From Girardia tigrina (taxonomy: Eukaryota), in the NCBI GenBank assembly GCA_001938485.1, contig MQRK01246086.1, positions 1 to 63,486 of the forward strand: a DNA stretch of 63,486 nt, in the 5' to 3' direction. Below, in pieces: positions 11,241-52,112 of the stretch (position 1 is its first letter; each line of letters opens with the position of its first letter). The notes beneath the pieces were generated by a model. It saw nothing but the letters and a program-made list of their open reading frames with translations. It had not been told where the DNA came from and made no database searches. The translations under genes were made by a program, and so were the position numbers.

Positions 11241-12314
11241 TATATGAGATTACCAAACCTAACCATATAAATATTAACTGACCAATGAAATTCAACCATT
11301 TTTTTCAATTTGATATCACATATTCATTTTAAAAGGGCATTAATATATGAAAAATAATTATGCATGCAAAAACATACATACACAAACACACCAAAACATT
11401 CAAAGACACTAATATATATACACAATATTTTTGCATTTTCATAGGGCCCTTTTCGTTTTAATAGGGCAATTGAAAATTAAAATTAACAAAAAAATTTATT
11501 TTTTTTAAGAATTATTTTCCAAATTGAAATATCAATATGGCAATTTTAAACTCGGAAACCGAAATAAAGATAAAACACAAGAAAAAAGGAAATTTTGTGT
11601 TTAAAAAATCGTCATTTAACATTTGTAATGCAGAATAAACAAAATCAAACAATAACAGAGAAGTTTCTATGTACATAAAAAACATCAAAACGTGATTTTT
11701 TCTTTTACGAAGTTTATTGATATTTATCTAAATGCGATTCACCGTTATTGGGCACCCACAACACAAAATAGTAAAGTTTCTCAAGCGAGTCGAGTGAAGA
11801 AATTCCAAAATGATTCTGTAGTGATTAATGAGATGCGGTTTCGATGCAGCTAAATCCGATTGGATACTGCCGGACTTGTTTATGTAGTCCGTCTTTTGAT
11901 GTATTCGTCATCGTAAACATCTGAAATCTCGGTCCAGTTTGCATTTACGCTTTCTATAGAACGAGCAATGGAGAACGCTGTTGCTTTTTTTATTCACATG
12001 TTCTCCATTTATATAAGCACAGATTTAATTCCATATTGATAATTAATAATAGAAATAATTGTTGATAATTTATTACAACAATAAATTAAAATTTAAATAT
12101 GCTTTAATACATATTTCTATATATAGGGTCCTAAAGAAATGACAAAATGCCCTATTAAAATGAAAACAGGTGTAGTAAATAAATTTTATATAATAAAACT
12201 CAACAACATATAAAATTATATTCTAACCTTCAATCAATAAAAAATTATATTTTAACCATCAATCAATAAACAATTAAATTCATTAAAAATCGTCTTAATC
12301 AAGATCATCAAAAT

Positions 12315-13943
12315 ATGGATTATACACCGTGCAAACGAAAAGCTTGGGGAAGAGCATTAGACAAATATTCACCCTCAAAATGCACATTAAACTCTCCCAT
12401 TAACCCAATTTATGCTCACATTAAACAAAAGAATCTTTTAGACGATCCGTTTTTCGAAGGACTTTTATTAGGGACAATGTTGAGCGAAGAAAACTACTAT
12501 TTGAACTCGATCTCAATTGTCCACGAAATGCACAACGATCCCGACCCTTTGATTAAAATGTTTCGAAATTCCTGGTCGAAATCGAATCTCTTCGATCGAT
12601 TAACCAATGTTTACTATTTAGCGGAGGGAACATATGGAAAAGTTTTCGAGGCCACTGATAAATATAGTGATAGGAGATTCGCGATTAAAAGTATCATTCC
12701 AGATGACAAGTCCCAATACGACCATTTGTATTCGTTGTGGAAGATCTTTATGGAAAGAAATATCTTATTATCGTCAAACGATTCACCTTTTATGACTCGA
12801 TTGTTTGCGACATTTCAAGACGTTGATAAAAAATCTTTTTGGATATTTATGGAATATTGCTATTGTACACTTGATGATCTTTTTGGAGTTTTTATAAAAA
12901 GCGATATTAAAGAACGCTGCAGCTCGTTTTTGCAAGGTCTCCCGGTGATTAAGGAGAATTCAGCCGTTGCCTCTCAATATATCGGAATGAGTTATGAAAT
13001 ACTATCGTTCATATACTTCTTCCAACTACTATGTGCTCTTCATTATCTCGCCGATCGACATATTGTTCACGCTGATATTAAATCTGATAATGTTCTCATT
13101 GCGACTAATGGACAAGCGAAATTGAGTGATTTAGGAGCTGCCCAAAGATTCAGGTGGATCGATAAACGATCTGCCTTGCACATAATAAAGGATATTGATA
13201 ATATGAAGAAAGAAGTCGAAGAATATGATTTTCAATTCAAGAGATCGGGAAACACGACTTACTTAGATCCGGAAACTACGATTCGGTTTTATAAACAATT
13301 CGATGAAGAATCATTTTATGAAATTGACAGAACGTTTCCATTAGAAGAACTTTATTCCGATGAAAAGTTAACTAGACAAACATTCTTGACGGATTATTAT
13401 GCAGTTTGTGTTGTGATCTTAGAGATGCTGTTAGGGGGAGTTGTGTTGAGTAGTATATATTACTATGAACCTTTGGAACTTAAAAAATTTCAGTTATCCA
13501 AAAACCATATGAAATATATAAATATCTCGTTGGCATATAATGAAAGGATTTTTAATAAAGTTATCTACGAAAATCTCAAAAAATCCTTTCTTAATCATTC
13601 TCATTTTCAAGTCGCTCAGTTATTGGCTTATGGGTTGCTTGAGCGCAAAATCAGAGGCAGTGGTTATAAACGAGATATCAAGATTTATAGGAATAATCAA
13701 GTAGAAGTAGAACCGGCGATTGATATTAATAAGGTAGAAACATTGCATTTTTTCAAAGAACATCACGTACAAGTAGAAGGTGCCTCATTTCTCATATTTC
13801 CAGAGAGATTTCTAGCGATTTTAAGAAAGATTAACGAAAAAAAAGTATTAAAAAAACCCGTCAATTTAAATGAGCTGACCATTGAAATTCCCGGAATTTC
13901 AATGCCCACAGCCCCCTATACCTATACGACTGAAGATTTTTGA
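12315..13943 (+). CDS. Intronless atypical Ser/Thr protein kinase (non-RD; AGC-like N-lobe), paralog 1
   Basis: 542-aa ORF with AEGTYGKV G-loop, FAIK, ERNIL (alphaC Glu), HADIKSDN catalytic loop, DLG, GNTTYLDPE and DYYAVCVVILEML. Confidence 0.92.
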   Translation: MDYTPCKRKAWGRALDKYSPSKCTLNSPINPIYAHIKQKNLLDDPFFEGLLLGTMLSEENYYLNSISIVHEMHNDPDPLIKMFRNSWSKSNLFDRLTNVYYLAEGTYGKVFEATDKYSDRRFAIKSIIPDDKSQYDHLYSLWKIFMERNILLSSNDSPFMTRLFATFQDVDKKSFWIFMEYCYCTLDDLFGVFIKSDIKERCSSFLQGLPVIKENSAVASQYIGMSYEILSFIYFFQLLCALHYLADRHIVHADIKSDNVLIATNGQAKLSDLGAAQRFRWIDKRSALHIIKDIDNMKKEVEEYDFQFKRSGNTTYLDPETTIRFYKQFDEESFYEIDRTFPLEELYSDEKLTRQTFLTDYYAVCVVILEMLLGGVVLSSIYYYEPLELKKFQLSKNHMKYINISLAYNERIFNKVIYENLKKSFLNHSHFQVAQLLAYGLLERKIRGSGYKRDIKIYRNNQVEVEPAIDINKVETLHFFKEHHVQVEGASFLIFPERFLAILRKINEKKVLKKPVNLNELTIEIPGISMPTAPYTYTTEDF

Positions 13944-18292: not shown

Positions 18293-20413
18293 GTTTTGAT
18301 GGAAGCCGATCGATCTTGATGTAATTGTGATTCTTTAGTTCATTTTTCATCATTGGAGCGGAGAATTGCCAATTTGACCGAACATTTTTGCCAGTTTCAG
18401 AAATTAAAATAATTAATTAAAATTAAAAAATTAAATGAATAAATAATTAAATAAAAAAATAATTAACTTAAATAATCGATGAAAATTCCAAAAAAATATT
18501 TGTTGTCGATTCCTTGATGCAATTTTAACCGACAATTTAGCGAAACGTTTATTTAATTTTAATAAATAAACTCATTTGCCGAAACAAAGACAAACATTAT
18601 TTTGATTATATAATTTGAACTGTCGAAATCGAAAATGTAAATTATCAAATTGTGAGCCTCTTTTTTTGGCATTGTAATTAAACTTTCTTTGCCAATGTAA
18701 GTATGTCTTTTTTGTTTGTATGAATCTGATTGAATGATTGCATGTATGTGTTAATATGTGATTATGTAATTCGAATGATGTGTATAATGAAATAAAAATG
18801 ATTGGTTTAAATGTGTATTTTTTATGTGTGTTAATTTTGCGGATTGTTATCACAAGTTTTAAATCAATTTTTTTAAAAAGGAGTCACAATTTTTCAATTC
18901 AATTTAAAAGAGAATTTTGTAAAATAAAAAAAGTTTCAAATAAAAGTTCTTGATTCGAATTTGAATAAAATAATTTTATGGTGATTTAAATATATGGAAA
19001 TAAATTGACAAAATAATGAAAATGTGGGAAAAACTCGGACGTGAAGTTAAAGTTCAACATAAAGATGAACAACTGAAAGTCATTTGTCCAGCCAATTTAA
19101 AATTGGTGCCTGAATTCATCATAACATCGATAACGAGTGCGCTATCACTCGAAGTTTTCCCGGCAGATAAAGATGCGTGTCATCATTTTCTCGGTTGGAA
19201 TATCGCCACATTTGAATTGCGTAAACGAAATGGGATTCCGCTGAATATTTTGTTCAATAAAATGAAAAGCACTTTTCAACCGACATGCACAATGAAAAAC
19301 AATTCTTCTCTTTCTAAAATATCGCGGAGACACGGCTTCCTGTCCAATCATCATTTACATTTCCTTTCGTTAACGAAAATTAAATTAATTTTCCTCCGTC
19401 TTTATTTAATTAATATCAAATTTCAGAAAACATTTTGTTGATTTACTTTTATGAAATCAGAATTAACATTTTTAAAATAATTTTAATTAAAATTAATTTT
19501 ATTAATTCGTGTTTTCAACGCTGACATGTTACTATAAATAGATTTATTTGCAGCCAGATAACAATATCCTTTGATTGCACACGCATATGAAGGCAATGAA
19601 AATAACAAATGTTGTCTATATACACCAAAATCATTTGTAAACACCATGGAAAATGGAGGCGAGGTTTTTTTAAAAAATTTTATACTTGTTTTAATTTATG
19701 TTAATTTCTTTTATTATATTTGGTTACGCGATTTTTTGACGATGTTTTGGCCTGCTGTTTGGTTATTGACAGATTTGTCCATTGAAAGATGAATTGCGAG
19801 TAAAACAATTTAGTATCAACAATCAATGTTAGAAATTCAAAAACGAGCGGAAATTAATCGATAAAGTAAAGAAAATGTCAACTTTGGAAATTCCATATAA
19901 TTCGAAGAACAAGTAGAGAAGAGAAATGCTAATGAAACATCCAAAACAGAATTATATAATAATAAAAATAAAGTCGCAGCTGGGACAGTCCATCAGTAAC
20001 ACGTCGACACCGCCTTCTCGACACAATCTATAATTCACCTTCGCAGAACAATTTCTGTTCAAATGTTCATCGAGACCGTTAGCGATGTTGTCTCTAACAT
20101 TTGTTAAAGTCAAACAATCATTCTAATCAAATACACATCAAATCGATCGTTCAGACAAACAACCCTCACCTCCGTATTAACGATTATGCCACAGTTGCAT
20201 TTGATCAGATTGTGTTCCAAAAACAAAAAATTCCTGAAATTCAAAATCATATTGAACACACAAAAAACAAATTAATCAATATCATACACATAATTTTAGA
20301 GACAGAAATATATATTAAAAATAATCTATTATATTCAAAAAATTAAAAAATGGTGACAACTTATTTTTAAAATCAAAAGTACGCCATTTGTTAAATAGAC
20401 ATTTATTTTTCAT

Positions 20414-20453
20414 GACAATTAATTTCGACGGTATAACCGTCATCGTCAGGTCT
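20414..20453 (-). ncRNA. Minimal type I hammerhead ribozyme motif (Penelope pseudo-LTR)
   Basis: Minus strand reads GAC-CUGACGA-U-GACGG uuaua CCGUC-GAAA-UUAAUU-GUC. Confidence 0.75.
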
Positions 20454-20619
20454 CAAGAAAAAAAAGAATTTTAAGTCTGCTTATTATAGTGATTATGTCA
20501 TCTAAACACGCTCTATTCCATTCGCTCTAATCAATTCTATTCATGTCTCTATCTATTCAACGTGTTTCCTTCTAATCCACAGAATTACTTTGATATCAAA
20601 ACAAGAATTAAAGAATAAA

Positions 20620-21837: not shown

Positions 21838-23546
21838 CCGTATCTATCGGACTATAAACCGCGGCTTATATGAAAAAAAGTAGGAAAATTAATCAATTGG
21901 TTACACTCATGCGCGTGTGCGACTTATATAAAAACAAAACCGAATAATTTTATGTTAGGATTGTTCGATCTCCTCGATTCCACCACAATCTTCATCATCT
22001 ATTATTGCAAATGTTTCGAAAATGTGCAAAAATTCCGTTTGGATTTCTTGTGAATCGTTATCCCCACTCCAGTCTCAATGTCTCAATCATCATCAGTTTG
22101 AATCCCGCTTTCTTAAATCCATTTTAATACACTGTGGAGTGAGATCTTCACAGCCTTCGACAATCCAATCGCGTATTTCTGAATATGTCGCTCTTTTGAG
22201 TCTCCCCGTTTTGTTGTCAATGTGACAACCATTGGTAATCGATAGGGTGTGGCACGAAGCACTATGGCACACAATGAATAAACACAACATGGGAAAACAT
22301 ATCACGAGTATTATTACGAGTCTTTACGAAGACGCAAAGACAAAAGTGTTGACAAGTGAGCAATTTAGCGAGGAGTAAGACAAGGTTGCATTCTTTCACC
22401 AACACTGTTCAACCTTTTCCTTAACAGAATTGTTATGGAAGCAATAGACGCTCTAGACGATGTTGGAATAAGCCGCGGAGGAACGAGAATAACCAATCTA
22501 CGATTTACTGACGACAGAGACCTAATCGGCAAAGATGAGGCGGAGAATGGAATTTTTTTCGGAATGGAAATCAACAGACAAAAAAGCAAAGTAATGGTTT
22601 CAGGAAACTATAACTACGAGGTTAAACTGGAGATTTTCACTGAAGGGGAAAAGCTGGAACAAGTAAGGAATTTCAAATACTTAGGCTCTACTATCACAGA
22701 GAATGGGGGAAGCGAAGAAGAAATCAGAAGCCGGATTGGTATATCAACAAGCGCAATGATTATGCTTAGCACAGTGTTTAACCTCAAAGAAATCCATCTC
22801 AAGAGCAGATTGAAGATCACTAAGGCTATTGTCTGGGCAACACTCCTCTATGGATGCGAGAGTCGGACAATAAATCAGAAGAGCATGGATAGGCTTAAAG
22901 CGTTTGTAATGAAGTACTACAGGAGAATGCTGAAGATCACGTGGAAAGAAAAGAAGACAAACGACTTTGTCTGGAGGAGAGTGACAGAAATACTAGGTAA
23001 AATACCGGAGTCAATAGAAAAGGCCATCAAGAGAAGGACATCAAATAAGAAAACAAGTACTAGCAAAGGTTATGATTGAGGGAAGAGTGGAAGGAGAAAG
23101 ACCAAAGAGGTAATCGATGGACGATTTAAAAGAATGGACTGGACTGAGTATGGAATGTCTGAGAAAAGAATCTGCAAATAGAGAGATGTGGCGAAGGCTT
23201 GTTTATAATTGGATGCACCCACGGCCCAACGGCTGAGGCCAAAAGAAGAAGAGAAGTTCTGTTGTCAATGTGACAACCATTGGTAATCAATTTTCCCAAT
23301 GTCTCTTTGGCTGAGATTTGGACGATTTGATAACTGATAGATCGAGTGGTTGAAGGCTGCCAGTTCAGAATATTTCTGACTTCATCTTCAACGTCCTCGG
23401 TAAGATGACATCCAGCAGAATCGTGTGTCAAAAGTGATTTTGGCTTAAGAAAGGAATCAATAATTTTCATCCATATTTTTAAAATGAGTTTGTGATTCAA
23501 GTGTCACAGAAATACGCGAGTGCGACTGATAGTGCGATAGATACGG
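21838..23546 (-). mobile_element. pogo/Tigger-like DNA transposon (internally deleted), interrupted by a LINE
   Basis: TA|CCGTATCTATCGGACTAT ... ATAGTGCGATAGATACGG|TA TIRs; DDE_1-like LLTHDSAGCHLTEDV and GRLKRATYSEIRDWIVEG on the minus strand. Confidence 0.85.
22241..23255 (+). mobile_element. 5'-truncated RTE-clade LINE (RT and 3' end)
   Basis: GVRQGCILSPTLFNL, NLRFTDD, FKYLGS, LLYGCES; (GAA)-like tail aaaagaagaagagaa; ~33-bp target-site duplication 22208-22240 / 23256-23288. Confidence 0.88.
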
Positions 23547-23852: not shown

Positions 23853-24660
23853 CAATATTTGGTAACACTTCCATACGAGCCGCCACAAATTTTTTTTTAA
23901 AAATGAAAATTTACCTAATTTGGGTACGACTGTTATACTGCCCCCCATATATTATGTAATCGGTGAAGATTTATATATTCTTTAAGATTAATTATTTATT
24001 TAATTACTTCATTTAATAAATTAATAATAATTAATTTAATTTATTTAAATTAATTAATTAATTTAATTCCTCGAATAAATAAATTTTAATTAATTATTTA
24101 TATTTTTTGTAATTTAATTTAATAATTATTTTATTCTTTAAGATTAATTATTAATTTAATTACTTTATTTATTAAATTAATAATAATTAATTTAATTTAT
24201 TTTAATTAATTAATTTAATTCATTGAATAAATAAATTAGTGAATCAATAAATCAATTATTACATAAATGAATAAAAAGTAAATAAAGTAAAGAATAAATT
24301 AATTATTGAATGAATAAATTATTTAATTTATTATATTAAATTTGATTGAATTTTAATTAATAATTAATTATTTCATTTTTGATTAATTAATTAACAATTT
24401 TATTCATCCATTAAACCACCTATTCTTCTAATTCGAAACGAAATTATAGAACCTGTACAGATTACATAATATATGGGGGGCAGTATAACATTCGTTCCCT
24501 AAATTTTTACACGCTAATATCTCAGGAAGGAAGCAAAATGGCAAGAAGCTCCCAGAAGGAAAAATGTTCCAAATTAGGTAAATTTTCATTTCTAAAAAAA
24601 TATTTGTGGTGGCTTAATCGGAACTTAACTTAATCGGTACGGAAGTGTTACCAAATATTT
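23853..24660. repeat. Fold-back inverted repeat around an almost pure A/T core
   Basis: aatatttggtaacacttcc..aaatgaaaatttacctaatttgg..tgttatactgccccccatatattatgtaatc (23853-23961) is mirrored at 24460-24660. Confidence 0.8.
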
Positions 24661-26101
24661 TAAGAATTATCAAATAATAACCGAAAAAAAATAATTAAAA
24701 ATTTCAAACGCATTTTTCAGAAATATATCACGAAAATATCCATCGAATTTTTCACAAATTATCAAATATTAACCGAAAAAAAATATTTAAATAATAAAAT
24801 TAAATGTTTTAAAATTCAGAAAAAATATTTCTAGAAGTAGTCGAAAATTATCGGATATAAACTGAAAAAAAAATATTTCTAAAATTAAATCAAAATATTT
24901 AACGAATTATCGGAATTAAATGAAAAAAAACGAATGTTTAAAGTTAATTGTTCCGATTAATCGATACTCTCAAACTGGTGGATCGATAACCAAAACATAC
25001 AAAAATATTTGTCAAGTTTAACCTTGGTGCATTTCCATGAATATTTCATCCTCAATTTGCTTCCACTCGTCGACACTAAAATTAATTTCCTAATTCGATA
25101 AAGTCATTTAATGCGCGGTTAAATTCGTAAAATGTGATACATTCTGCAACGAAAATTCGTTCATTGTTTCTCGAAAATTGTCGCGATTTACATTAGTCAA
25201 ACTCGCTCGTTTCAGCAATTTCTCGTTGATAATTGTTTCTCGACATTTCTTTTCATATATGAAAAATTAAATTCAATTAAAAAAATAGATATTTTCGGTT
25301 GTTTTTTTCGTCAATTCACTTTCATAAATTGTTCTCGTTTATAATTTTGCGAACGATTGTAGAGATGTTGGTGATTCATATTTGAATTGATCGCAAATTC
25401 TTTTTGGGTTATTTAAACAAAGATTTTTTGAGGCGGATATTTTTTTAAGAATTATAATGTTTAATTTTGATTTTCAAATTTTGTGTTGAAATTTTAAATA
25501 AAAATGTGGTATAAAATTAAAAAGATTTTTTATTTAATAACAGTAAATTTAGAAATTATCTAACTTTAAGGGTTGCTATAAAAGCTAGAAATTCGCATAT
25601 AAATTAGTAAATATAAAAAGAAGTTTTTAAACATGCTTTATATGTGAATCGAATTTCAAACCGGTTTGGGTTACAAAATGACTGTTTGACTAGGAGTTTT
25701 TAATTTGTGTTTCGCGACGTCGAAACTGTGACATCACGATAGTATATTAAACTATTCAGTGTGACTCTAAAATGTTGACCAAAAAATCGGTGTAGATTGC
25801 TGACTTAGATTACCTGGTTTTCGATGCATAGAAAATATAGAAATATAGAGAAGAATAGAATACCTGGAATCAAGAAAATCAATATTTTTTTAATTCTTTA
25901 TGACAAAGATATAACCAAATAAACTAGATGAATAAGGAATTTATTTATGTATTTATTACGAAAAAATACATATTTTTCGCTTCATACTTTTATTTTTAAA
26001 ATGGGGACAATTCGTTTGTTATTTTGACAAAAATGACTAATTAATCTTTCAGATATTAATTCTATAAAAACAAATAAACGCCATTTAAAAATATATTTTA
26101 G

Positions 26102-26141
26102 GATAATATATTTCGACGGTTTAACCGTCATCATCAGATCA
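26102..26141 (-). ncRNA. Minimal type I hammerhead ribozyme motif (inverted pLTR)
   Basis: Exact reverse complement of the motif at 27257-27295. Confidence 0.78.
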
Positions 26142-27256
26142 CTGATTATGTTCTTTTTTATTGCTTTTATATAAGAAAATGAATGATTATGTAATCACTT
26201 ACGTAAGTCAAATCGAAAACTCTTAACAAATTAGTTGAAAAAAACACTACTTTATAAGAGATATGTGGATGATATCTTTCTAGTCTTTGAATCTCGAGAA
26301 CATGTTTTTCCTTTTCTAGATTACATGAATTCGATTCATCCAAATATAATCTTTACAGTAGAACAGCAAATAAACGGAAAATTACCATTCCTTGATTTGT
26401 TAATTGAAAGAAAAAATGATCATTATGAAACTGAAATATATCGAAAGAAAACTGATACTGGTTTGTACACCTCCATAAACAGTTTTTGTGAATTTAAATA
26501 TAAAAGGAATATGATTAAAGGTTTGTTATACCGCTCTTGGTCTCTTTCTTCCACGTTTTCAAAATCTATTAAAAGTATTGATACATTGAGCAAGTTATTG
26601 AATAATAACGGTTACTCTAAGTCCATCATAGACAGACTCACTCGTGAGACTGTATATAAAATAATTGAAAAAGAAAAAATGAAAAATGAAAAAATTAATA
26701 GTTTAAACATTGAAAACTGCTTTACACCCGGGTATACTCTAAGCTTACCTTACTCCGAGGGTTTTAAACACCTCAAGAATTCGATCTTGAAATCAACAAA
26801 TAACATTTGAAATTTAAAAATTATTTCTCAATCATTTAAAGTTGAGAATATGTTTTACAATAAATCAGATACTCCTTTAGGATTGTGTTCGGACATTGTT
26901 TATCAATACACATGTAATGGGTGCAATGCCACATACATCGGAGAGACTGCCGTCATTTCTGCAAACGAGTCCAAGAACACAGTCAAAAAGGGGGAAAGAG
27001 TAATATTGCTGAGCATAAAAAAACGTGTAAATGTAATATGAGCATAAATGATTTTAAGATTTTGTGCAAGCATTTTAAAAATTATTGGGAGAGAGTGTCA
27101 TGTGAAGCATTGTTGATAAGATCATGTGATCCTAAAATCAATGTTCAAACAGCACTCTCAACTAATTTGTTAAGAGTTTTCGATTAGACTTATATAAGTG
27201 ATTACATAATCATTCATTTTCTTATATAAAAAGCAATAAAAAAGAACATAATCAGT

Positions 27257-27295
27257 GATCTGATGATGACGGTTAAACCGTCGAAATATATTATC
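27257..27295 (+). ncRNA. Minimal type I hammerhead ribozyme motif (3' pLTR)
   Basis: GAU-CUGAUGA-U-GACGG uuaaa CCGUC-GAAA-UAUAUU-AUC. Confidence 0.8.
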
Positions 27296-27889
27296 CTAAA
27301 ATATATTTTTAAATGGCGTTTATTTGCTTTTAATAAAAAATCGCCATCTTTTTTCAAGTTTATTTGTAATTCTATAAAAGATTCATATATTATCATCATA
27401 AATTCACATTGGAACAACATTTCAGCTCAAAAGAAAACGAAAAATGATTGTTAAATTGCTTAAGAAATTTTTGACACACATTCACATAAATAAACAGGAC
27501 TTGAGCTATGAAAAACATGGTCAACATTTTTAAAAACAATAATGAAAATTAATTCGATTAAAAATGTTTGAAATTATAAAAGTGTAGTTCGGAATTTCGA
27601 TTAAAATTTTCTTTGATTGTTTGTTTTTAGCAAAAATTTTGAACAAAAACTATAAACGGTATTGAAAAAATAAAAAAAATATTTAAAACTGTAGTTCTCG
27701 GAAAAACTAACATTAAATAAATTGAAAAAAACTTTAAATTTTGATTTTTGTTTAGTTAAACTAAAAGGGTAAAAAGTCGATGGCACAATTTTAATTTTTT
27801 GTAAGTGGATTTGTGAATAAAGAAATAAATGTTCATTTTTATTCTCATCTTGTTATTTTTTATCATAAAAAATAACGCAAAAAATAACC

Positions 27890-37470: not shown

Positions 37471-38158
37471 GCAAACAGAACATCGGCCGATCGCTGATAT
37501 TCAATTTCGACCAATCTAAAAATAAATGGCCATTGATTGGTCAGTCTAAAAATAGATTGGCTTTGGGATTGGTCGGTCTTCAAGATGTGGTTGCCATGGG
37601 TATCAGAATCAATAAATTCAATGACGACTTGTTCCACGTCTGGTTACTCCAGCTCACTAATTGTGCCATCAAAGTTCAAATGATCGAATGGAACTCGATT
37701 GATTTCGAATCATAAATTTATTATAATTGATTGTTTTACTGTTTTTAGAATTTTCGATGTTTGTGGTTGACTTAATTTTTTAGCAGTATTTGACATTGTA
37801 CACCTTCACTGAAAACGGACTATTGATAAATATTATTTTGATTTCTCAGTGACTATTTCAATAAAAAACGTTTAATCGTGTTGATTATATTTGCCGAAGG
37901 ACAGTATATATTTCAATGAATCGTTTGTTATGGATTTAATCGATATTTGTTCTGTCATCATTGTATAATCGATTCGTGTTCTTGTTCAAATAATGCAATT
38001 TCTTGGATTTTGAAATGTGAAAGAAAAACACCAAATCAGTTTTGTGGAATAATTATATAAATATTAATGTATTTTTATGTGTGTTGTTTAAATAATCATT
38101 ATTGTAAATTGTTAATTCAAATATATTTTTCTTAGTTGGATATTCTCTTTCACAACAG

Positions 38159-38176
38159 TGGCGTCATGAGCAGGAT
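38159..38176 (+). promoter_or_regulatory. Primer-binding site, tRNA-Ser-like
   Basis: TGGCGTCATGAGCAGGAT 1 nt after the LTR; resembles the complement of a metazoan tRNA-Ser 3' end (..ATCCTGTTCGTGACG-CCA, from memory). Confidence 0.7.
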
Positions 38177-39659
38177 CAAAGCCGATAGTGGAGATCACCA
38201 GTCAAAATTACTGGAAGTAATTTCGAATAGAATCCTGAAAAAGGACTCCGCCAAAACTCCGAAAACATTCGAAGAAGGGGACGATGCTGTCCAATTTTTA
38301 AAATGCATGGATGCATTTATGCGGCAACTTGAAATATCGGAGGAAACACAAGCTGACTTCTTCATGGAATACTTGGAGGAAGATGTTCAGTGTTTTCTGA
38401 AGTCGCAGTGGGGTTACACCCAAAACCAAAAGAGTTTCGAATGGCTCAAGGAAACTTTTTTGAAGCTGTTTGGACGAAAGAAGTCAGATATTTCATCGTG
38501 GATGAAACTATTTGGCATTCGACAGAAGGATGGCCAATCAACGAAGGACTTTATGAAAGAAATAAGAATTCGTTGTTTTAAAGAATTACCGGAGTTGACC
38601 TCCGAAGAAAGAGAGCCAAAAACTCTCCAAATTTTTATAAATGGTTTAATGAATGACAGAGCTCAAAAAGCACTAAAAGTGTTGCAGCCTAAAACTTTGG
38701 ATGAAGCATTCGAGATGATAAAAAAAGAATGTGTAACTCAGGAGATGTCGGCAACAGTAAATGTGCTGACCGAGAATGATGAAATTCGAATGCTCAGGGA
38801 TGAAATTTCAGAACTGAACAAACGTATTACCTCATTGCAGGAAACGGTAAAAGGGCTGCAGCATGAAAGACAATCGAGTCAATGGAAAGACGATAATAGA
38901 ATGAGAAATCCTGTCAAAGAAACAAGTGAATGCTGGAATTGTGGGAGCAGCAGTGACATTTTGAGAGACTGTAAAAAGTCTCGATTCTGCAAAAAATGCA
39001 ACAAAAAGGGACATATAGATAAGTTTTGTCTAAACGGAAAATGTAAATCAGTCCATGTGGTCGAGTCTGCCAGTATATCCAGTAATGAAAGTGAAACAGA
39101 TACGGGAACAGGTACGGAAGAACCGAGCATTTGTCATATTTTAAATGCAAAGAAGTCGTATGTCAGAGCGATGAAAGAAACAGTTCCGAAACAAAAGGGA
39201 CAGAATAATTTTCGAGTAAAGAAGAGCAGTTATAAAGTAAAAGATCAGAACAAACCAATGTGTTACGGTCGGATCAATGGGAATAGTAAAAAGATCTTAT
39301 TAGATACCGGAGCCGAAGTGAATGCTATCAGCAAAGACATGCTAATGGAGTTGCAAGATTCAGATAAAACATTGAAAACCAGACGTTCATCCAGAAAAAT
39401 CAAATATGTAGATGGATTTACAGTGCCTGTACGAGCGGAAGTATCCCTGATAGTTGAATTGGGTGCTAAAGGGAAAAGTTGCAATTTCTTTGTTGTGGAT
39501 GGATTGAGCCCGAATATAATTCTTGGGATACGGAGTATGAAGAGTCTTTGGATTAAGATTGATCTCGATAATAATGGTGTTAATAGTGGAACAATTTTCG
39601 TTCCATTCGTTTCGAAGGTGAATGCAGATACGACAGTCCCGACAAATCAGTTAAACTGA
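38165..39659 (+). CDS. Gag-protease polyprotein of the Gypsy element
   Basis: Open frame with two zinc knuckles (CWNCGSSSDILRDC degenerate; CKKCNKKGHIDKFC) and aspartic protease LLDTGAEV. Confidence 0.88.
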
Positions 39660-39707
39660 AAGGGCACTGTTTGAGGAGTCGGAAGCAGTATGTGCTCCAT
39701 GAGACTC
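39650..39707 (+). promoter_or_regulatory. Putative -1 programmed ribosomal frameshift signal (slippery heptamer plus pseudoknot)
   Basis: G_TTA_AAC immediately before the gag-PR stop; 5-nt spacer; stem GGGCACTGTTT/AAGCAG-TAT-GTGCTC; loop GAGTC pairs with downstream GACTC. Confidence 0.65.
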
Positions 39708-40935
39708 AGACTGTAGCAGCTGCCGTTACACGAGAAGCGCCTGAAAGTTTCGTGTCTCTTATCCCAATATAGATGTGTGAATAATTGCAATAGAGACAAT
39801 ATTATTAGTTTAGTGAAAGAATTCAGAGACGTATTTAGTTGGTCTAAATATGATATAGGCTTGGCGCGGAACGCTGAGCATAAAATAGAGCTTAAAGATA
39901 ATGGCCCGATACAGGAGCAAACCAGGAGAATTCCGGTGGCGCTCCAAGAAAATGTGGATGAGTTTGTTGAACAGTTGCTACAGAAAAATATTATTCAACA
40001 AAGACTATCAGAGTGGAACGCTCCTATAGTGATTGTGCCAAAAAAGGACGGAGATATTCGACTTACAGTAGATTACCGGAGACTAAATCAAAAGACTAAA
40101 GTTCCATCATTTCCAATTTTTGACGCACAACAACTTTTCGATACCTTGGGAGGAGCAAAACACTTTAGTACAATTGATTTGACTGCAGGATATTATAACA
40201 TAAGTCTTGCAGAGTGTGATAGAGAGAAAACAGCGTTTAGTACTAGAAAAGGACATTGAGAGTTTTTGAGGTTGCCAATGGGCTTAGCGGCAGCGCCAGC
40301 AACGTTCCAAAGAGTTATGAAAGCGATATTAAAGGAAAAACACTTGAGGGAATGCTTGATATATTTGGATGATATTCTAGTTTTTGGGAAGACACAAGAG
40401 GAGCATTTAGTCAGACTGCGAAAAGTATTATCCAAAATCAAAGAAGCCGGTCTAAAGATTGTACCAGCAAAGTGCCAATTTTTTGCAAGGGACGTAAAGT
40501 ACCTGGGCCATAGAGTATCAGCCAATGGAATTTCAATGGACGAGGATAAAATCAAGTGCATCCAGGAGTGACCACAGCCAGAGTCTCAAGAGGAAATGAG
40601 ACAATTTCTTGGACTTTGCGGATACTATCGCAATTATATTAAAGAGTACGCTAAAATTGTTGCACCAATAGAAGACACATGTAAAGACTGTTTGAACAAA
40701 GCTAGGACTAGAAAATTAAACCTGTTGCAATGGTCAGCCTGTTTGGGTGACGCATTTCTTCATTTGAAACAATGTTTAATGACCGCGCCAATTTTAGCAG
40801 TTCCGAATATCTACGACCAATTCATATTGGATACGGATGTATGTGATAACACGATTGGATGCGTCCTTTCTCAAGTGCAAAGTGGTGATGAAAAAGTAAT
40901 AGCCTACGCTTCGCATAAGTTGTCTACAGCAGAAC

Positions 40936-46886: not shown

Positions 46887-46993
46887 CTCAAAATCAACGG
46901 GAAAAACATTATAATATTATATTATATAGGTATATTTAAAAATCAATAAAACATTTATTATCAATAAATTCAATTAAAATAAATTATTTTATT

Positions 46994-48604
46994 ATGGAAA
47001 AAATAAGAAGCGCCTGGCAAAGAGCCCTTGACAAATTTTCGCCTTCGAAATGCACATTACTCTCTCCCGTTAACCCAATTTATGCTCATACTAAACAAAG
47101 TCATCATTTAAATGATCATTTTGTCGAAGGACTTTTGTTAGCGACAATGTTGAGTGAAGAAAACTACTATTTGAACTCAATCTCAATTGTCCACGAAATG
47201 CACAACGATCCCGACACATTGATAAAGATATTTCGAAATTCCTGGTCTCAAGATAACTTGTTTGACCGTTTGGAAAACGTTTATTTCCTTGGACAAGGTT
47301 CATTTGGAAGTGTTTTCGAGGCCACCGATAAATATAGCGGTAGAAAGCTAGCGATTAAGACAATCATTCCCGAAGACAATTCTCAATACGACCATTTATA
47401 TTCTTTGTGGCAAATCTTTATGGAAAGAAATATCTTATTGTCGGCAAACGATTCTCCTTATATGACTCGATTGTTTGCGACATTTCAAGACGTCGATAAG
47501 AAAACTTTTTGGATAATCATGGAGTATTGCTACATTACGCTCCAATCATTAATTAAACGGGTCACAGAAAAAGATTATAAATCCTATTCTAGAGCTTTAA
47601 TCAGTGGAGACGATGTGATTTTCAATATTTCTAAATATGTCAGCAAAAAAATCGGAATGAATTATATAACGCTATCGTTTGTATACTTCTTTCAACTGCT
47701 CAGTGCTCTTCATTATCTCGCTGATCGGCATATTGTTCACGCTGATATTAAATCCGATAATGTTCTCATTGCGACTAATGGACAAGCGAAATTGAGTGAT
47801 TTAGGAGCTGCCCAAAGATTCAGGTGGATCGATAAACGATCTGCCTTGCACATCATAAGAGATATTGATAATATGAAGCAAAAAGTCGAAGAATACGATT
47901 TCGAATTCAAAAGATCGGGTAATGTTGGATATTTAGATCCGGAAACAACGATTCGGTATTATAAAACGACAAGTCGATCTAAATATTTGAAAATTAAAAG
48001 TATTTATCCATTTGATGATCTTCATTTAAATGAAAAGTCGACTAGACAAACATTCTTGACAGATTATTATGCAGTTTGTGTTGTGATCTTAGAGATGCTG
48101 TTAGGGGGAGTTGTGTTGAGTACTCACCGTTCCTTTCACATCCCAGATCTTTTGAATCTCAAGATGACGGAAAACGAAATATATTTTATAAATATCTCTT
48201 TGGCGTTTAACGACAGAATATTTCGTAAAGTTTTCTATGATAATTTAAAAAGTTCGTTTAACGGTCAGCACTTACAAGTAATAAAAGTTTTGTCATATGG
48301 ACTGCTCGATAGAGAGAGAAGAGCTGTTGGGTTAAAGAGAAATATTCTCCTTTATAGGAATAATCAAATTGAAATAGAACCGGCAATTGATATAAGAAAA
48401 ATCGAATTATTAAAATTTTATAAACGTAACAATATCAAATTTGAAAACGCATCTGCTGTCATTGCTCCTGACGAATTCTTTTACTTTGTAAAACCTCATC
48501 ATCAGGAACAGAAGGAGGGAATTGATCTAAAATGTCTGACAATTGATATTCCAGCAAGAATAGTTCCCACGACTTCTTATACATACACATCAGTAGATCT
48601 CTAA
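46994..48604 (+). CDS. Intronless atypical Ser/Thr protein kinase (non-RD), paralog 2
   Basis: 536-aa ORF with GQGSFGSV, LAIK, ERNIL, HADIKSDN, DLG and GNVGYLDPE; colinear with 12315-13943. Confidence 0.92.
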   Translation: MEKIRSAWQRALDKFSPSKCTLLSPVNPIYAHTKQSHHLNDHFVEGLLLATMLSEENYYLNSISIVHEMHNDPDTLIKIFRNSWSQDNLFDRLENVYFLGQGSFGSVFEATDKYSGRKLAIKTIIPEDNSQYDHLYSLWQIFMERNILLSANDSPYMTRLFATFQDVDKKTFWIIMEYCYITLQSLIKRVTEKDYKSYSRALISGDDVIFNISKYVSKKIGMNYITLSFVYFFQLLSALHYLADRHIVHADIKSDNVLIATNGQAKLSDLGAAQRFRWIDKRSALHIIRDIDNMKQKVEEYDFEFKRSGNVGYLDPETTIRYYKTTSRSKYLKIKSIYPFDDLHLNEKSTRQTFLTDYYAVCVVILEMLLGGVVLSTHRSFHIPDLLNLKMTENEIYFINISLAFNDRIFRKVFYDNLKSSFNGQHLQVIKVLSYGLLDRERRAVGLKRNILLYRNNQIEIEPAIDIRKIELLKFYKRNNIKFENASAVIAPDEFFYFVKPHHQEQKEGIDLKCLTIDIPARIVPTTSYTYTSVDL

Positions 48605-49714: not shown

Positions 49715-52112
49715 CCCTTAAACGACCAAGAAAAAAAATCACGTTGAGTACCAAATGGAGTCTGCTGGACCCCAGTACAGAATCTATATTTTTACGGTTA
49801 CTATTATCAAAAAAAAATAACTTTATTAGTCTCTAACATCACACTAGTAAGTTAAGAGTATTAAAATATACAAATTTATTAATTTATAAAACAATGACAA
49901 GAATATGAAAAGTTCTATTGACATTTATTACAACGACGAATTGAGTGCTCAAAGCAAACTGCTTGATAACAAATGTCACATTGTTGGCTAGACTTTCGAT
50001 CATTTTGTCGGGGCACAAATGGTATCGCCGCTTTTGATTGCGACGCATTGGTCCACCTGGGTTAGGCAACATTGGTGGATTATCAACTTTCACCAATTCG
50101 GTCGCTAGTTGTAATGGAAACATGCGTCGACGATGGCTAACCCGATTTGCGAAATTTGGATGTACAGCTGTATAGAGCACGAAAGCATTGTACGCGCCAA
50201 TATCCAATAAATTACAAAATAATGCAAATGGCCATCTATTCGTTTTTCGTTTTGATGAGTAGCACCGCACATTTTGATCGAGAGTATCAACCCCTCCTTT
50301 CTGTGAGTTGTATTCCAGAATCTTATGGGTTTTCTACGGAACATCTTCCTCACACAAGTCATCATGGTACAATGATGACATAAACACTACAGCTTTTCCT
50401 GGCTTTGGTACGTATGAAACAATTGTGCAGTCCCGTTGAAATCCAAAGGTACTTGACAAAACCTGTCGTTGTCGCGTGGGTAACATTTGCATAGGCAGCT
50501 CACCTTTATTTTTACGAATAGTCCCTAGGTAAGTCAAGCGACGTGCCAATAGAGCGCGAACAAGCACAATATTTGTAAAGAAGTTATCGCCAACGTAGTG
50601 TCTACCTGTGTTTGTCAGATGATCAGTTAATTCAAGTACAAATCTGGTACCTTGTCCCACCTCACGTTCACTACCACATCGGCCAGTGTAAACTTGAAGA
50701 TTGACACAATAGGAATTCCTTGCATCCGCTGCAACCCTCAATTTTATACCATATTTACCCGGCTTACTTGGAATAAACATTTTGAATGGGCAACGTCCAC
50801 GAAAGGTCACCAATTGCTCATCAACTGTGACAACTGCTCTGGGTTTATAACTTGATCGGCACTTTGTTGCAAAAATGTCAATGACATTTCGAATTGGTGC
50901 CAATTTGTCATCTCGTCGACGTTTTTCACGTGTGCCCCTGTTATCAAAGCGTAAATGCCGTCTCAATTCACAAAAACGATTGCGGGACATCGTTTTATTG
51001 AATATTGGTCTACCATGTTGTTCATTCCAAAGCTGAGTGATTGCTTCGCTTTTCGCTCTATAAACTCCGGCAAGCAGGAGGAGACCGAAAAATCGATACA
51101 ACTCATCAGAATTTGTTAAAACCCAATTAGCGTTGTGTAGTCGGCCTTCTGTGTTGGTGTTTTGAACGATAATGGCCACTATATGTAAACTTCAAAATAC
51201 TTTGAACGCTCTTGATGGGCTGTCACCACAACTATTTTTTAGTGCTTGTCGTGTGGGCCCTGCCTCATCACGTAAGATATCGTGTTGTCTATATTGTCTT
51301 TCAGCAGTAAAAATATAACGACGTTCCCATATTTCAATGCCATATCGAGATACCATAACGCCTTGCTCAACCTTATTTACCACTTCTAATTCATCGTCAC
51401 TACTTTCTTGCTCTCTTGGATTGGAAATAACTTCATCATCTTCTGAAAAATGTTATAAAAGATAACTCAAAACAAAACCTTTGAAAATATCATCACCAAT
51501 TGCTATGCATCTATTCGCCTCAATTGCAGCTATTCTAGTTGGACGTTGCATATTCAAAAAAATTTAAAATTTATAAAACGATTTGAAAACAATGAAAATG
51601 GTAATTTATGCAATTGTAGAGACGTACATACAATTCGAATATAACTGACTGGCCGTGCGTAGACATATATAAATGCACCAGCAAACAAGACAATAAACGT
51701 GTGCGCTTATATAACCTAATATATTCACATATAACTGGCTAAAAGTATGTGCATGACATTTATGAGCCTTTATATACCAATTGAGTAACTCATGTATAAA
51801 ATGAGCCTATATACATATGAATCTTGCTATTATTACTTGCTATTATTATCAAAATGTATTGCAATACTTTTAATATTTCATTTTGCTAATTATTCATTTG
51901 GGGTCTCACAGACCCCACACGGTATAATTTGTGACAATTTTTTAAAAACCCTGTTCCTAAAAAACTAAAAACATTAGGCGGGCCATCTTTTGGTAAACTT
52001 TACATCCATATTAAATGTCTCATAGTTTAGATTCAATTGGATTTGAATTGTTAAAGTTATTTATATTTTAAAACCTTTTGGGGTCCAGTAGACCCCAGTG
52101 GTCGTTTAAGGG
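49715..52112 (-). mobile_element. piggyBac transposon with both TIRs; transposase frameshifted
   Basis: TTAA|CCCTTAAACGACCA ... TGGTCGTTTAAGGG|TTAA; VDEQLVTFRGRCPFKMFIPSKPGKYG, GDNFFT, RWPFALF; likely ATG at 51551. Confidence 0.95.

What the first reader, a model, noticed from the sequence alone, without database searches (positions are those of the whole stretch)
26071..27326. Penelope cassette bracketed by inverted arms, with a hammerhead ribozyme on each strand
Seen: ~168-bp near-perfect inverted repeats (26071-26238 / 27158-27326) enclose a truncated RT and GIY-YIG. Each arm holds CUGAUGA-U-GACGG(loop)CCGUC-GAAA with a short palindromic helix III (AUAUAU) and a 3-bp helix I. Known: Penelope-like elements carry minimal type I hammerheads thought to act as dimers, and often have inverted pseudo-LTRs. 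Inference: a transcript of either strand carries one ribozyme and folds into a long panhandle dsRNA, so this young locus could yield self-cleaved RNAs or siRNAs. The predicted cleavage triplet is AUU, which is less common than GUC/AUC.
Basis: partly seen in the sequence, partly recalled or inferred. Interest (0 to 1): 0.72.

Follow-up and report, generated by a model that had tools for sequence, protein, structure and literature searches.

The report
Twin-primed Penelope stub with two hammerheads
This is a broken copy of a very abundant Penelope-type jumping gene whose end, including a small self-cutting RNA motif, was pasted in twice back to back; the layout is already described, the two motifs are predicted to block each other rather than cut, and the family's copies suggest both ends were likely copied from one RNA.

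Summary
Observation confirmed and extended. The hammerhead is a real minimal type I motif: at least 17,500 pattern hits genome-wide, compensatory changes in all three helices, and AUU is the commonest triplet here (46 of 59). The layout, including hammerheads on opposite strands, is published (PMC4209133, PMC8557442, PMC3846280). The functional inference is weak: in a read-through RNA the antisense arm is predicted to sequester the ribozyme completely, the copy is not young, and no laid run covers its junctions. The useful part is family-level: 28 of 28 inverted copies have exactly one tailed end, both ends carry target microhomology, arms share rare variants (27 of 110; 2.6 expected), and 6 of 28 cannot be fold-backs. 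This favours priming from both nicks on one RNA at two start sites. The scan already noted this reading in other genomes and similar loci in this one.

The parts
26057..26069 (.). Left copy of 13-bp target-site duplication
   Evidence: identical to 27367-27379
26070..26238 (-). Inverted pLTR arm: copy of the element's 3' end stopping at the inner (tail-less) end site; 5-nt overlap with the target
26102..26140 (-). Minimal type I hammerhead, left copy; predicted cut after 26105
   Evidence: structure supported by family covariation; activity untested
26237..26238 (.). Internal inversion junction with 2-nt overlap
   Evidence: L001
26239..26810 (+). 5'-truncated RT (YVDD and thumb) and linker, ending in a premature stop at 26808-26810
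26811..27187 (+). GIY-YIG endonuclease region, broken by a 1-nt frameshift near 26950; ORF stop at 27185-27187 lies inside the right arm
   Evidence: sibling P0001 matches PF01541
27158..27326 (+). Sense pLTR part that is duplicated in the left arm
   Evidence: full-length siblings L069 and L074 carry a direct upstream copy
27223..27256 (+). TATA-like box (27223) and initiator-like TCAGT (27252) 31 nt apart, pointing out of the insertion; putative promoter, untested
   Evidence: motif names recalled
27257..27295 (+). Minimal type I hammerhead, right copy; predicted cut after 27292; holds the family's likely start codon (27263/27266)
   Evidence: sibling L140 open for 249 codons from this ATG
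27312..27346 (+). Stem-loop downstream of the hammerhead; the inner end site lies in its loop
   Evidence: stem kept with different sequence in 6 families; weak z-scores
27327..27366 (+). 40-nt PLE tail, present at this end only; outer end site with 4-nt overlap with the target
27367..27379 (.). Right copy of 13-bp target-site duplication

Best explanation
This is a dead, 5'-truncated insertion of an abundant endonuclease-bearing Penelope-like retrotransposon whose 3' end is present twice in inverted orientation, likely because both nicked target strands primed reverse transcription on one element RNA at two start sites about 40 nt apart, and whose two hammerheads are predicted to be passengers that block each other in any read-through RNA. 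Shown: boundaries, TSD, one-sided tail, broken ORF, family-wide covariation of the hammerhead, and the copy statistics. Inferred steps: (1) the GIY-YIG nicks both strands about 13 nt apart, leaving 3' overhangs; (2) each overhang anneals by a few bases to a U-rich start site, one at the tail end and one 40 nt inside; (3) because the RT has no RNase H the RNA survives, so the outer cDNA can displace and recopy the inner one; (4) the two cDNA ends are joined by end joining. The hammerhead's role, if any, lies in tandem source copies, where it sits at the transcript's 5' end around the start codon and can dimerise with the downstream copy.
For: Identity: RVT_1 plus C-terminal GIY-YIG in sibling P0001, DKG motif in longer siblings, direct upstream pLTR in full-length siblings. 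Two end sites: 130 copy ends fall at about +35-50 and +64-85 nt from the predicted cut. One tail per insertion: 28 of 28 inverted copies; with about 45% of ends tailed (866/1,942) the chance is about 8e-5 given at least one tail. TSD of 10-15 bp in 21 of 28; target overlap at 42 ends averages 2.8 nt against 1.30 +/- 0.21 (maximum 2.17 in 4,000 simulations). One template: arms share 27 of 110 minor alleles against 2.6 expected, over 23 of 28 pairs. Not fold-back: in 6 of 28 the shorter arm holds the tail that the longer lacks, and L075 and L141 have tail-only inverted stubs. In vitro, a Poseidon protein cuts and extends both strands and starts at two sites that bound the tail (PMC11167929). Sequestration.
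Against: The window's own arms share 0 of 1 minor allele and are not unusually close (rank 0.23); 4 of 23 pairs are no closer than the median. Shared alleles could also come from two RNAs of one source locus, later gene conversion or assembly cross-talk. 7 of 28 pairs gave no exact TSD of 9 bp or no anchor; 13 of 21 internal junctions carry inserted bases rather than overlap. Two of the six non-nested pairs are weak (L096 continues in tandem, L032 is 85% identical). Loci were chosen by similarity to tailed queries, so tail-less/tail-less pairs are under-sampled. PMC11167929 saw no difference in start site between strands, which does not by itself predict strict one-of-each pairing. Folding energies ignore proteins, and that paper found the ribozyme protein-assisted.
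Confidence: 0.68

Rival explanations
1. One reading: the locus is transcribed across both arms and yields self-cleaved RNAs and hairpin-derived siRNAs.
For: A 170-bp panhandle is the predicted fold on both strands; family sequences occur in RNA or RNA-like runs; Penelope copies give small RNAs in a rotifer (PMC3846280).
Against: The hammerhead is fully paired in that fold; one sense motif per transcript; no inward-facing promoter-like motif was seen; no coverage of 25928-26055 or 27400-27700 in 4 of 4 runs (contigs cannot show absence).
Confidence: 0.08
2. Each arm's pLTR promoter fires outward, making short RNAs that begin just before one hammerhead, lack the antisense arm, and cleave as intermolecular dimers with other family RNAs.
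For: TATA-like and initiator-like motifs are spaced 30-31 nt in both arms, and a TATA-like box lies 32-38 nt before the core in six of seven families shown; helix II forms in such RNAs (probability 0.96-1.0); the 3' pLTR of Drosophila Penelope can drive downstream transcription (PMC2377424).
Against: No flank coverage; the active dimer (-10.4 kcal/mol) is less stable than an inactive dimer (-25.2); minimal hammerheads cleave poorly even as dimers (PMC4209133).
Confidence: 0.12
3. The inverted arm arises by self-priming or fold-back of one cDNA or of an antisense template, as proposed for rotifer Penelope elements.
For: Explains shared alleles and the 22 of 28 pairs whose shorter arm is nested in the longer; proposed in PMC3846280.
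Against: 6 of 28 pairs are not nested and two copies have tail-only stubs; target microhomology at both outer ends; the two arms usually begin hundreds of bases apart, not at a palindromic centre.
Confidence: 0.15
4. Both nicks prime, but on two separate RNAs held together, for example by the hammerhead's palindromic helix III.
For: Gives the same TSD and microhomology; RNAs from one source locus would share alleles; the palindrome is conserved by covariation.
Against: Two equal RNAs give no reason for exactly one tailed end in 28 of 28; hammerhead-less PLE clades show the same layout (PMC8557442).
Confidence: 0.12
5. The cassette moves as a unit, like a DNA transposon with terminal inverted repeats.
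For: Inverted ends and a TSD.
Against: No other of 40 scored copies shares its internal junction; arm lengths and junctions differ in every insertion.
Confidence: 0.01

Closest known systems
EN+ Penelope-like element insertions with inverted 5'-truncated pLTR and one-sided 30-40-nt tail (Pen2a_Av in PMC3846280; general scheme in PMC8557442)
   Same: [quoted passage not shown]
   Different: TSD 10-15 bp here against 8-10 bp in the rotifer passages read; here one tail per inverted insertion was counted (28 of 28) rather than described as optional or frequent.
[quoted passage not shown]
   Same: Extra nucleotide between 9 and 10.1, G10.1-C11.1, short helix I, small palindromic helix III, thousands of copies in families, and pairs on opposite strands close together (reported at about 100-700 bp).
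   Different: The two motifs are 1.1 kb apart; sequence families are specific to this genome; activity not tested here.
Poseidon of Anolis (PAc; Frangieh et al. 2024, PMC11167929)
   Same: Start codon at the start of stem II with the cut 26 nt downstream; two internal RT start sites bounding the tail, at a stem-loop; AT-rich targets; copy ends not at the ribozyme cut.
   Different: Start sites are U-rich here rather than AC-rich; the parts of that paper read do not model inverted copies.
LINE-1 twin priming
   Same: Second target strand primes internally on the same RNA and gives an inverted 5' part.
   Different: In LINE-1 the second site is opportunistic and the segment is inverted, not duplicated; here the second site is fixed and the 3' end is usually duplicated.

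Membership tests
EN+ Penelope-like element (Penelope/Poseidon type) | Single ORF with RT and C-terminal GIY-YIG | tested here: met
   Sibling P0001: RVT_1 3e-11, GIY-YIG 7e-5, both above cut-off; window frame 94% identical; window copy itself broken
EN+ Penelope-like element (Penelope/Poseidon type) | DKG motif upstream of the RT core; CCHH motif in the endonuclease | tested here: met
   FDKGNG in L140, L141, L143, L069; CxxC..H..H around YIGET in P0001
EN+ Penelope-like element (Penelope/Poseidon type) | pLTR in direct and inverted arrangements, 5' truncation, 30-40-nt tail, TSD | tested here: met
EN+ Penelope-like element (Penelope/Poseidon type) | [quoted passage not shown] | tested here: met
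   No paired cysteines between thumb and GIY in P0001; criterion from PMC8557442
EN+ Penelope-like element (Penelope/Poseidon type) | Placement in the clade by RT phylogeny with named references | not tested
   Homologues found (976) carry no clade names
Minimal type I hammerhead ribozyme | Core CUGANGA and GAAA, H17 not G | tested here: met
   H17 U 46, A 9, C 4, G 0 of 59; core was part of the search pattern
Minimal type I hammerhead ribozyme | Helices I and II and palindromic helix III supported by compensatory change | tested here: met
   7 family representatives: 96% of cells paired, 5 of 11 pairs change on both sides, slid controls 26-60%; the outer helix I pair fails in 3 of 7
Minimal type I hammerhead ribozyme | Self-cleavage as a dimer | not testable with these tools
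   Only folding energies
Non-LTR retrozyme | Non-coding tandem repeat units each with a hammerhead | tested here: not met
   Coding remnant, inverted not tandem; definition from bioRxiv 2026.07.22.740005
TIR DNA transposon / MITE | Multiple copies with the same two ends and interior | tested here: not met
   Every inverted copy has its own junction and arm length

The most novel reading that the evidence does not exclude
Penelope-like elements integrate by obligate asymmetric twin priming: a dimeric RT-endonuclease engages one RNA at two fixed start sites flanking a conserved stem-loop, so every inverted insertion has one tailed and one tail-less end, and the inverted pLTR, the tail-only stub and the TSD are outcomes of one reaction.
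Probability: 0.5. Interest if true: 0.55.

Novelty: new member of a known kind. Interest (0 to 1): 0.27.

Why it matters
The locus itself is an ordinary relic and is unlikely to be a source of self-cleaved RNA. Its family matters modestly: how Penelope elements make inverted pLTRs and one-sided tails is unresolved, and the copy statistics (one tail per insertion, shared rare alleles, non-nested arms, microhomology at both ends) give sharp predictions for the existing in vitro Poseidon system.

Tried and rejected
Rfam scan of the window: no family at gathering score. Pfam on the window's own three fragments: no RT or GIY-YIG hit, so a sibling was used. PDB sequence search: only weak retron and group II RT matches. 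Ribozyme cut as copy boundary: 2 of 123 3' ends lie within 5 nt of it and 5' starts do not cluster there (queries favoured longer ends), and 56 of 59 motifs picked by core alone keep helix I past the cut; rejected as the usual boundary. Unit mobilisation as a TIR element: rejected. Expression: contigs from 4 of 18 listed runs (3 only guessed to be RNA) cover family sequence but not the flanks next to the junctions; contigs cannot show absence, strand or ends. The downstream stem-loop is not significant by folding energy alone (z 0.4 to -2.4). Lunse et al. on dimer cleavage and Pyatkov et al. 2004 were not held, so their content is known only through a review passage and Frangieh's summary; an earlier twin-priming model there or in subscription papers cannot be excluded. 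No supplementary files were read; alignments in the PMC4209133 supplement may bear on how common AUU is.

Full report
Observation. Between them lie the C-terminal part of a reverse transcriptase, a stop at 26808-26810, and a GIY-YIG region broken by a 1-nt frameshift near 26950. These fragments do not hit Pfam RT or GIY-YIG models themselves, but the first is 94% identical to the uninterrupted 521-residue frame of sibling L066 (P0001), which passes both cut-offs.

Family. The window lies in a 1.43-Gb assembly in which the body has 5,295 first-look candidates; the 39 other scored copies are 94-97% identical. Full-length siblings are about 2.8 kb with a direct upstream pLTR and carry the DKG motif; the linker lacks the Neptune-type cysteine motif (criterion from PMC8557442, passages). 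Of 68 distinct copies whose 5' end was in view, 22 begin with an inverted 3' end, so the layout is common. It is also published: inverted 5'-truncated copy and one-sided tail (PMC8557442, passages; PMC3846280, passages and Discussion) and dual minimal hammerheads on opposite strands (PMC4209133, parts 1-2 of 4).

The ribozyme. Rfam does not call it, but the core pattern has 12,348 exact hits and a pattern with a different helix II another 5,202, both with zero control hits. Across seven sequence families, one representative each, 96% of cells pair and five of eleven pairs change on both sides, in helix I, helix II and the palindrome; slid controls give 26-60% (related sequences inflate the shuffle test). 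Among 59 motifs picked by core pattern, H17 is U in 46, A in 9, C in 4 and never G, so AUU is the norm here. The likely start codon lies in the core, 26 nt before the cut, as in Anolis Poseidon (PMC11167929, parts 1-2 of 4); sibling L140 is open for 249 codons from it (this lead came from an earlier scan note). TATA-like and initiator-like motifs (names recalled) sit just upstream and a TATA-like box recurs in six of seven families shown, up to three examples each. In tandem source copies the hammerhead would thus lie at the 5' end of the mRNA and again at its 3' end.

Function at this locus. In a transcript spanning both arms, on either strand, the antisense arm comes first and pairs with the whole sense hammerhead: helix II probability 0, and 64 kcal/mol to force the active fold, against 12 for a solo arm. 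A panhandle and self-cleavage are therefore alternatives, not companions. Outward transcripts from each arm would keep helix II but need a partner RNA, and the active dimer is less stable than an inactive one. Contigs from 4 of 18 listed runs cover family sequence but not the flanks adjoining the junctions; three of the four are only guessed to be RNA and contigs cannot show absence. With a stop, a frameshift and 3% arm divergence the copy is not young.

How the inversion forms. Copy ends are bimodal, about +35-50 and +64-85 nt from the predicted cut (130 ends); only 2 of 123 lie at the cut (biased towards longer ends). These match the two internal RT start sites that bound the tail in PMC11167929. 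From loci L001-L168, after removing duplicates by flank, 28 diverging pairs remained; all 28 have one tailed and one tail-less end. About 45% of family ends are tailed (866 of 1,942), so independence gives about 8e-5 even given one tail; tail-less pairs are under-sampled by my queries. Twenty-one of 28 have an exact 10-15-bp TSD (six had none of 9 bp, one no anchor), and their 42 ends overlap the element's continuation by 2.8 nt on average against 1.30 +/- 0.21 in simulations using the same targets; this window has 5 and 4 nt. In 23 pairs long enough to test, arms share 27 of 110 minor alleles against 2.6 expected, many seen only in those two arms, though this window shares 0 of 1. In 6 of 28 the shorter arm holds the tail that the longer lacks (L096 and L032 are weak cases), and L075 and L141 have only a short inverted tail stub; a fold-back of one cDNA cannot give these. 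Internal junctions show 1-3-nt overlap in 8 of 21 and inserted bases in 13, as expected of end joining.

Reading. The simplest account is priming from both target 3' overhangs on one RNA, one at each start site, with displacement synthesis where the arms overlap (no RNase H domain in P0001). This is inference. Rivals are self-priming (PMC3846280), two RNAs from one source, and later gene conversion or assembly cross-talk for the shared alleles. Three searches of the held library did not show a twin-priming model for Penelope inversions; two older papers were not held, and subscription literature is not searched. I had noted this reading before the look-up; the scan's notes state it for several other genomes and describe similar loci in this genome as ordinary. 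They are not independent support.

Verdict. A real but known kind of structure: new member of a known kind, interest 0.27. Other papers seen: bioRxiv 2026.07.22.740005 (part 1 of 5), PMC6765202 and PMC2377424 (passages), PMC9977147 (passages, not used). No supplements were read.

Noticed in passing
window 20409-20459 (-): A third minimal hammerhead of a different family (other helix I and palindrome) in the window.
   Followed up: partly
window 12270-13943 (+) and 46940-48604 (+): Two similar uninterrupted protein-kinase frames of 557 and 554 residues (Pkinase), apparently intronless paralogues.
   Followed up: no
window 38136-40259 (+): Frames with aspartyl protease and RT matches, probably an LTR retrotransposon remnant (label inferred).
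   Followed up: no
window 50334-51191 (-) and 22369-23079 (+): A DDE_Tnp_1_7 transposase fragment and a separate RT fragment.
   Followed up: no
window 23878-24614: Nested inverted repeats of 46 and 53 nt around an AT-rich repeated interior, MITE-like (label inferred).
   Followed up: no
L063:2180, L065:2177, L067:2166: Three independent inverted insertions begin their short arm within 2 nt of the same family position (about window 26970-26972), a possible RT stop site.
   Followed up: no
window 27312-27346; L033, L183, L181, L041, L037: A 6-8-bp stem with a large AU-rich loop follows the hammerhead in six families with different, mutually pairing sequences.
   Followed up: partly
L187:363-2591: A different hammerhead family also has an inverted pair with the tail at one end only.
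   Followed up: partly
L021:2739-2791, L069:4019-4247, L074:4284-4415: Direct (tandem) upstream pLTR copies that would give two sense hammerheads in one transcript, the arrangement in which dimer cleavage is expected.
   Followed up: partly
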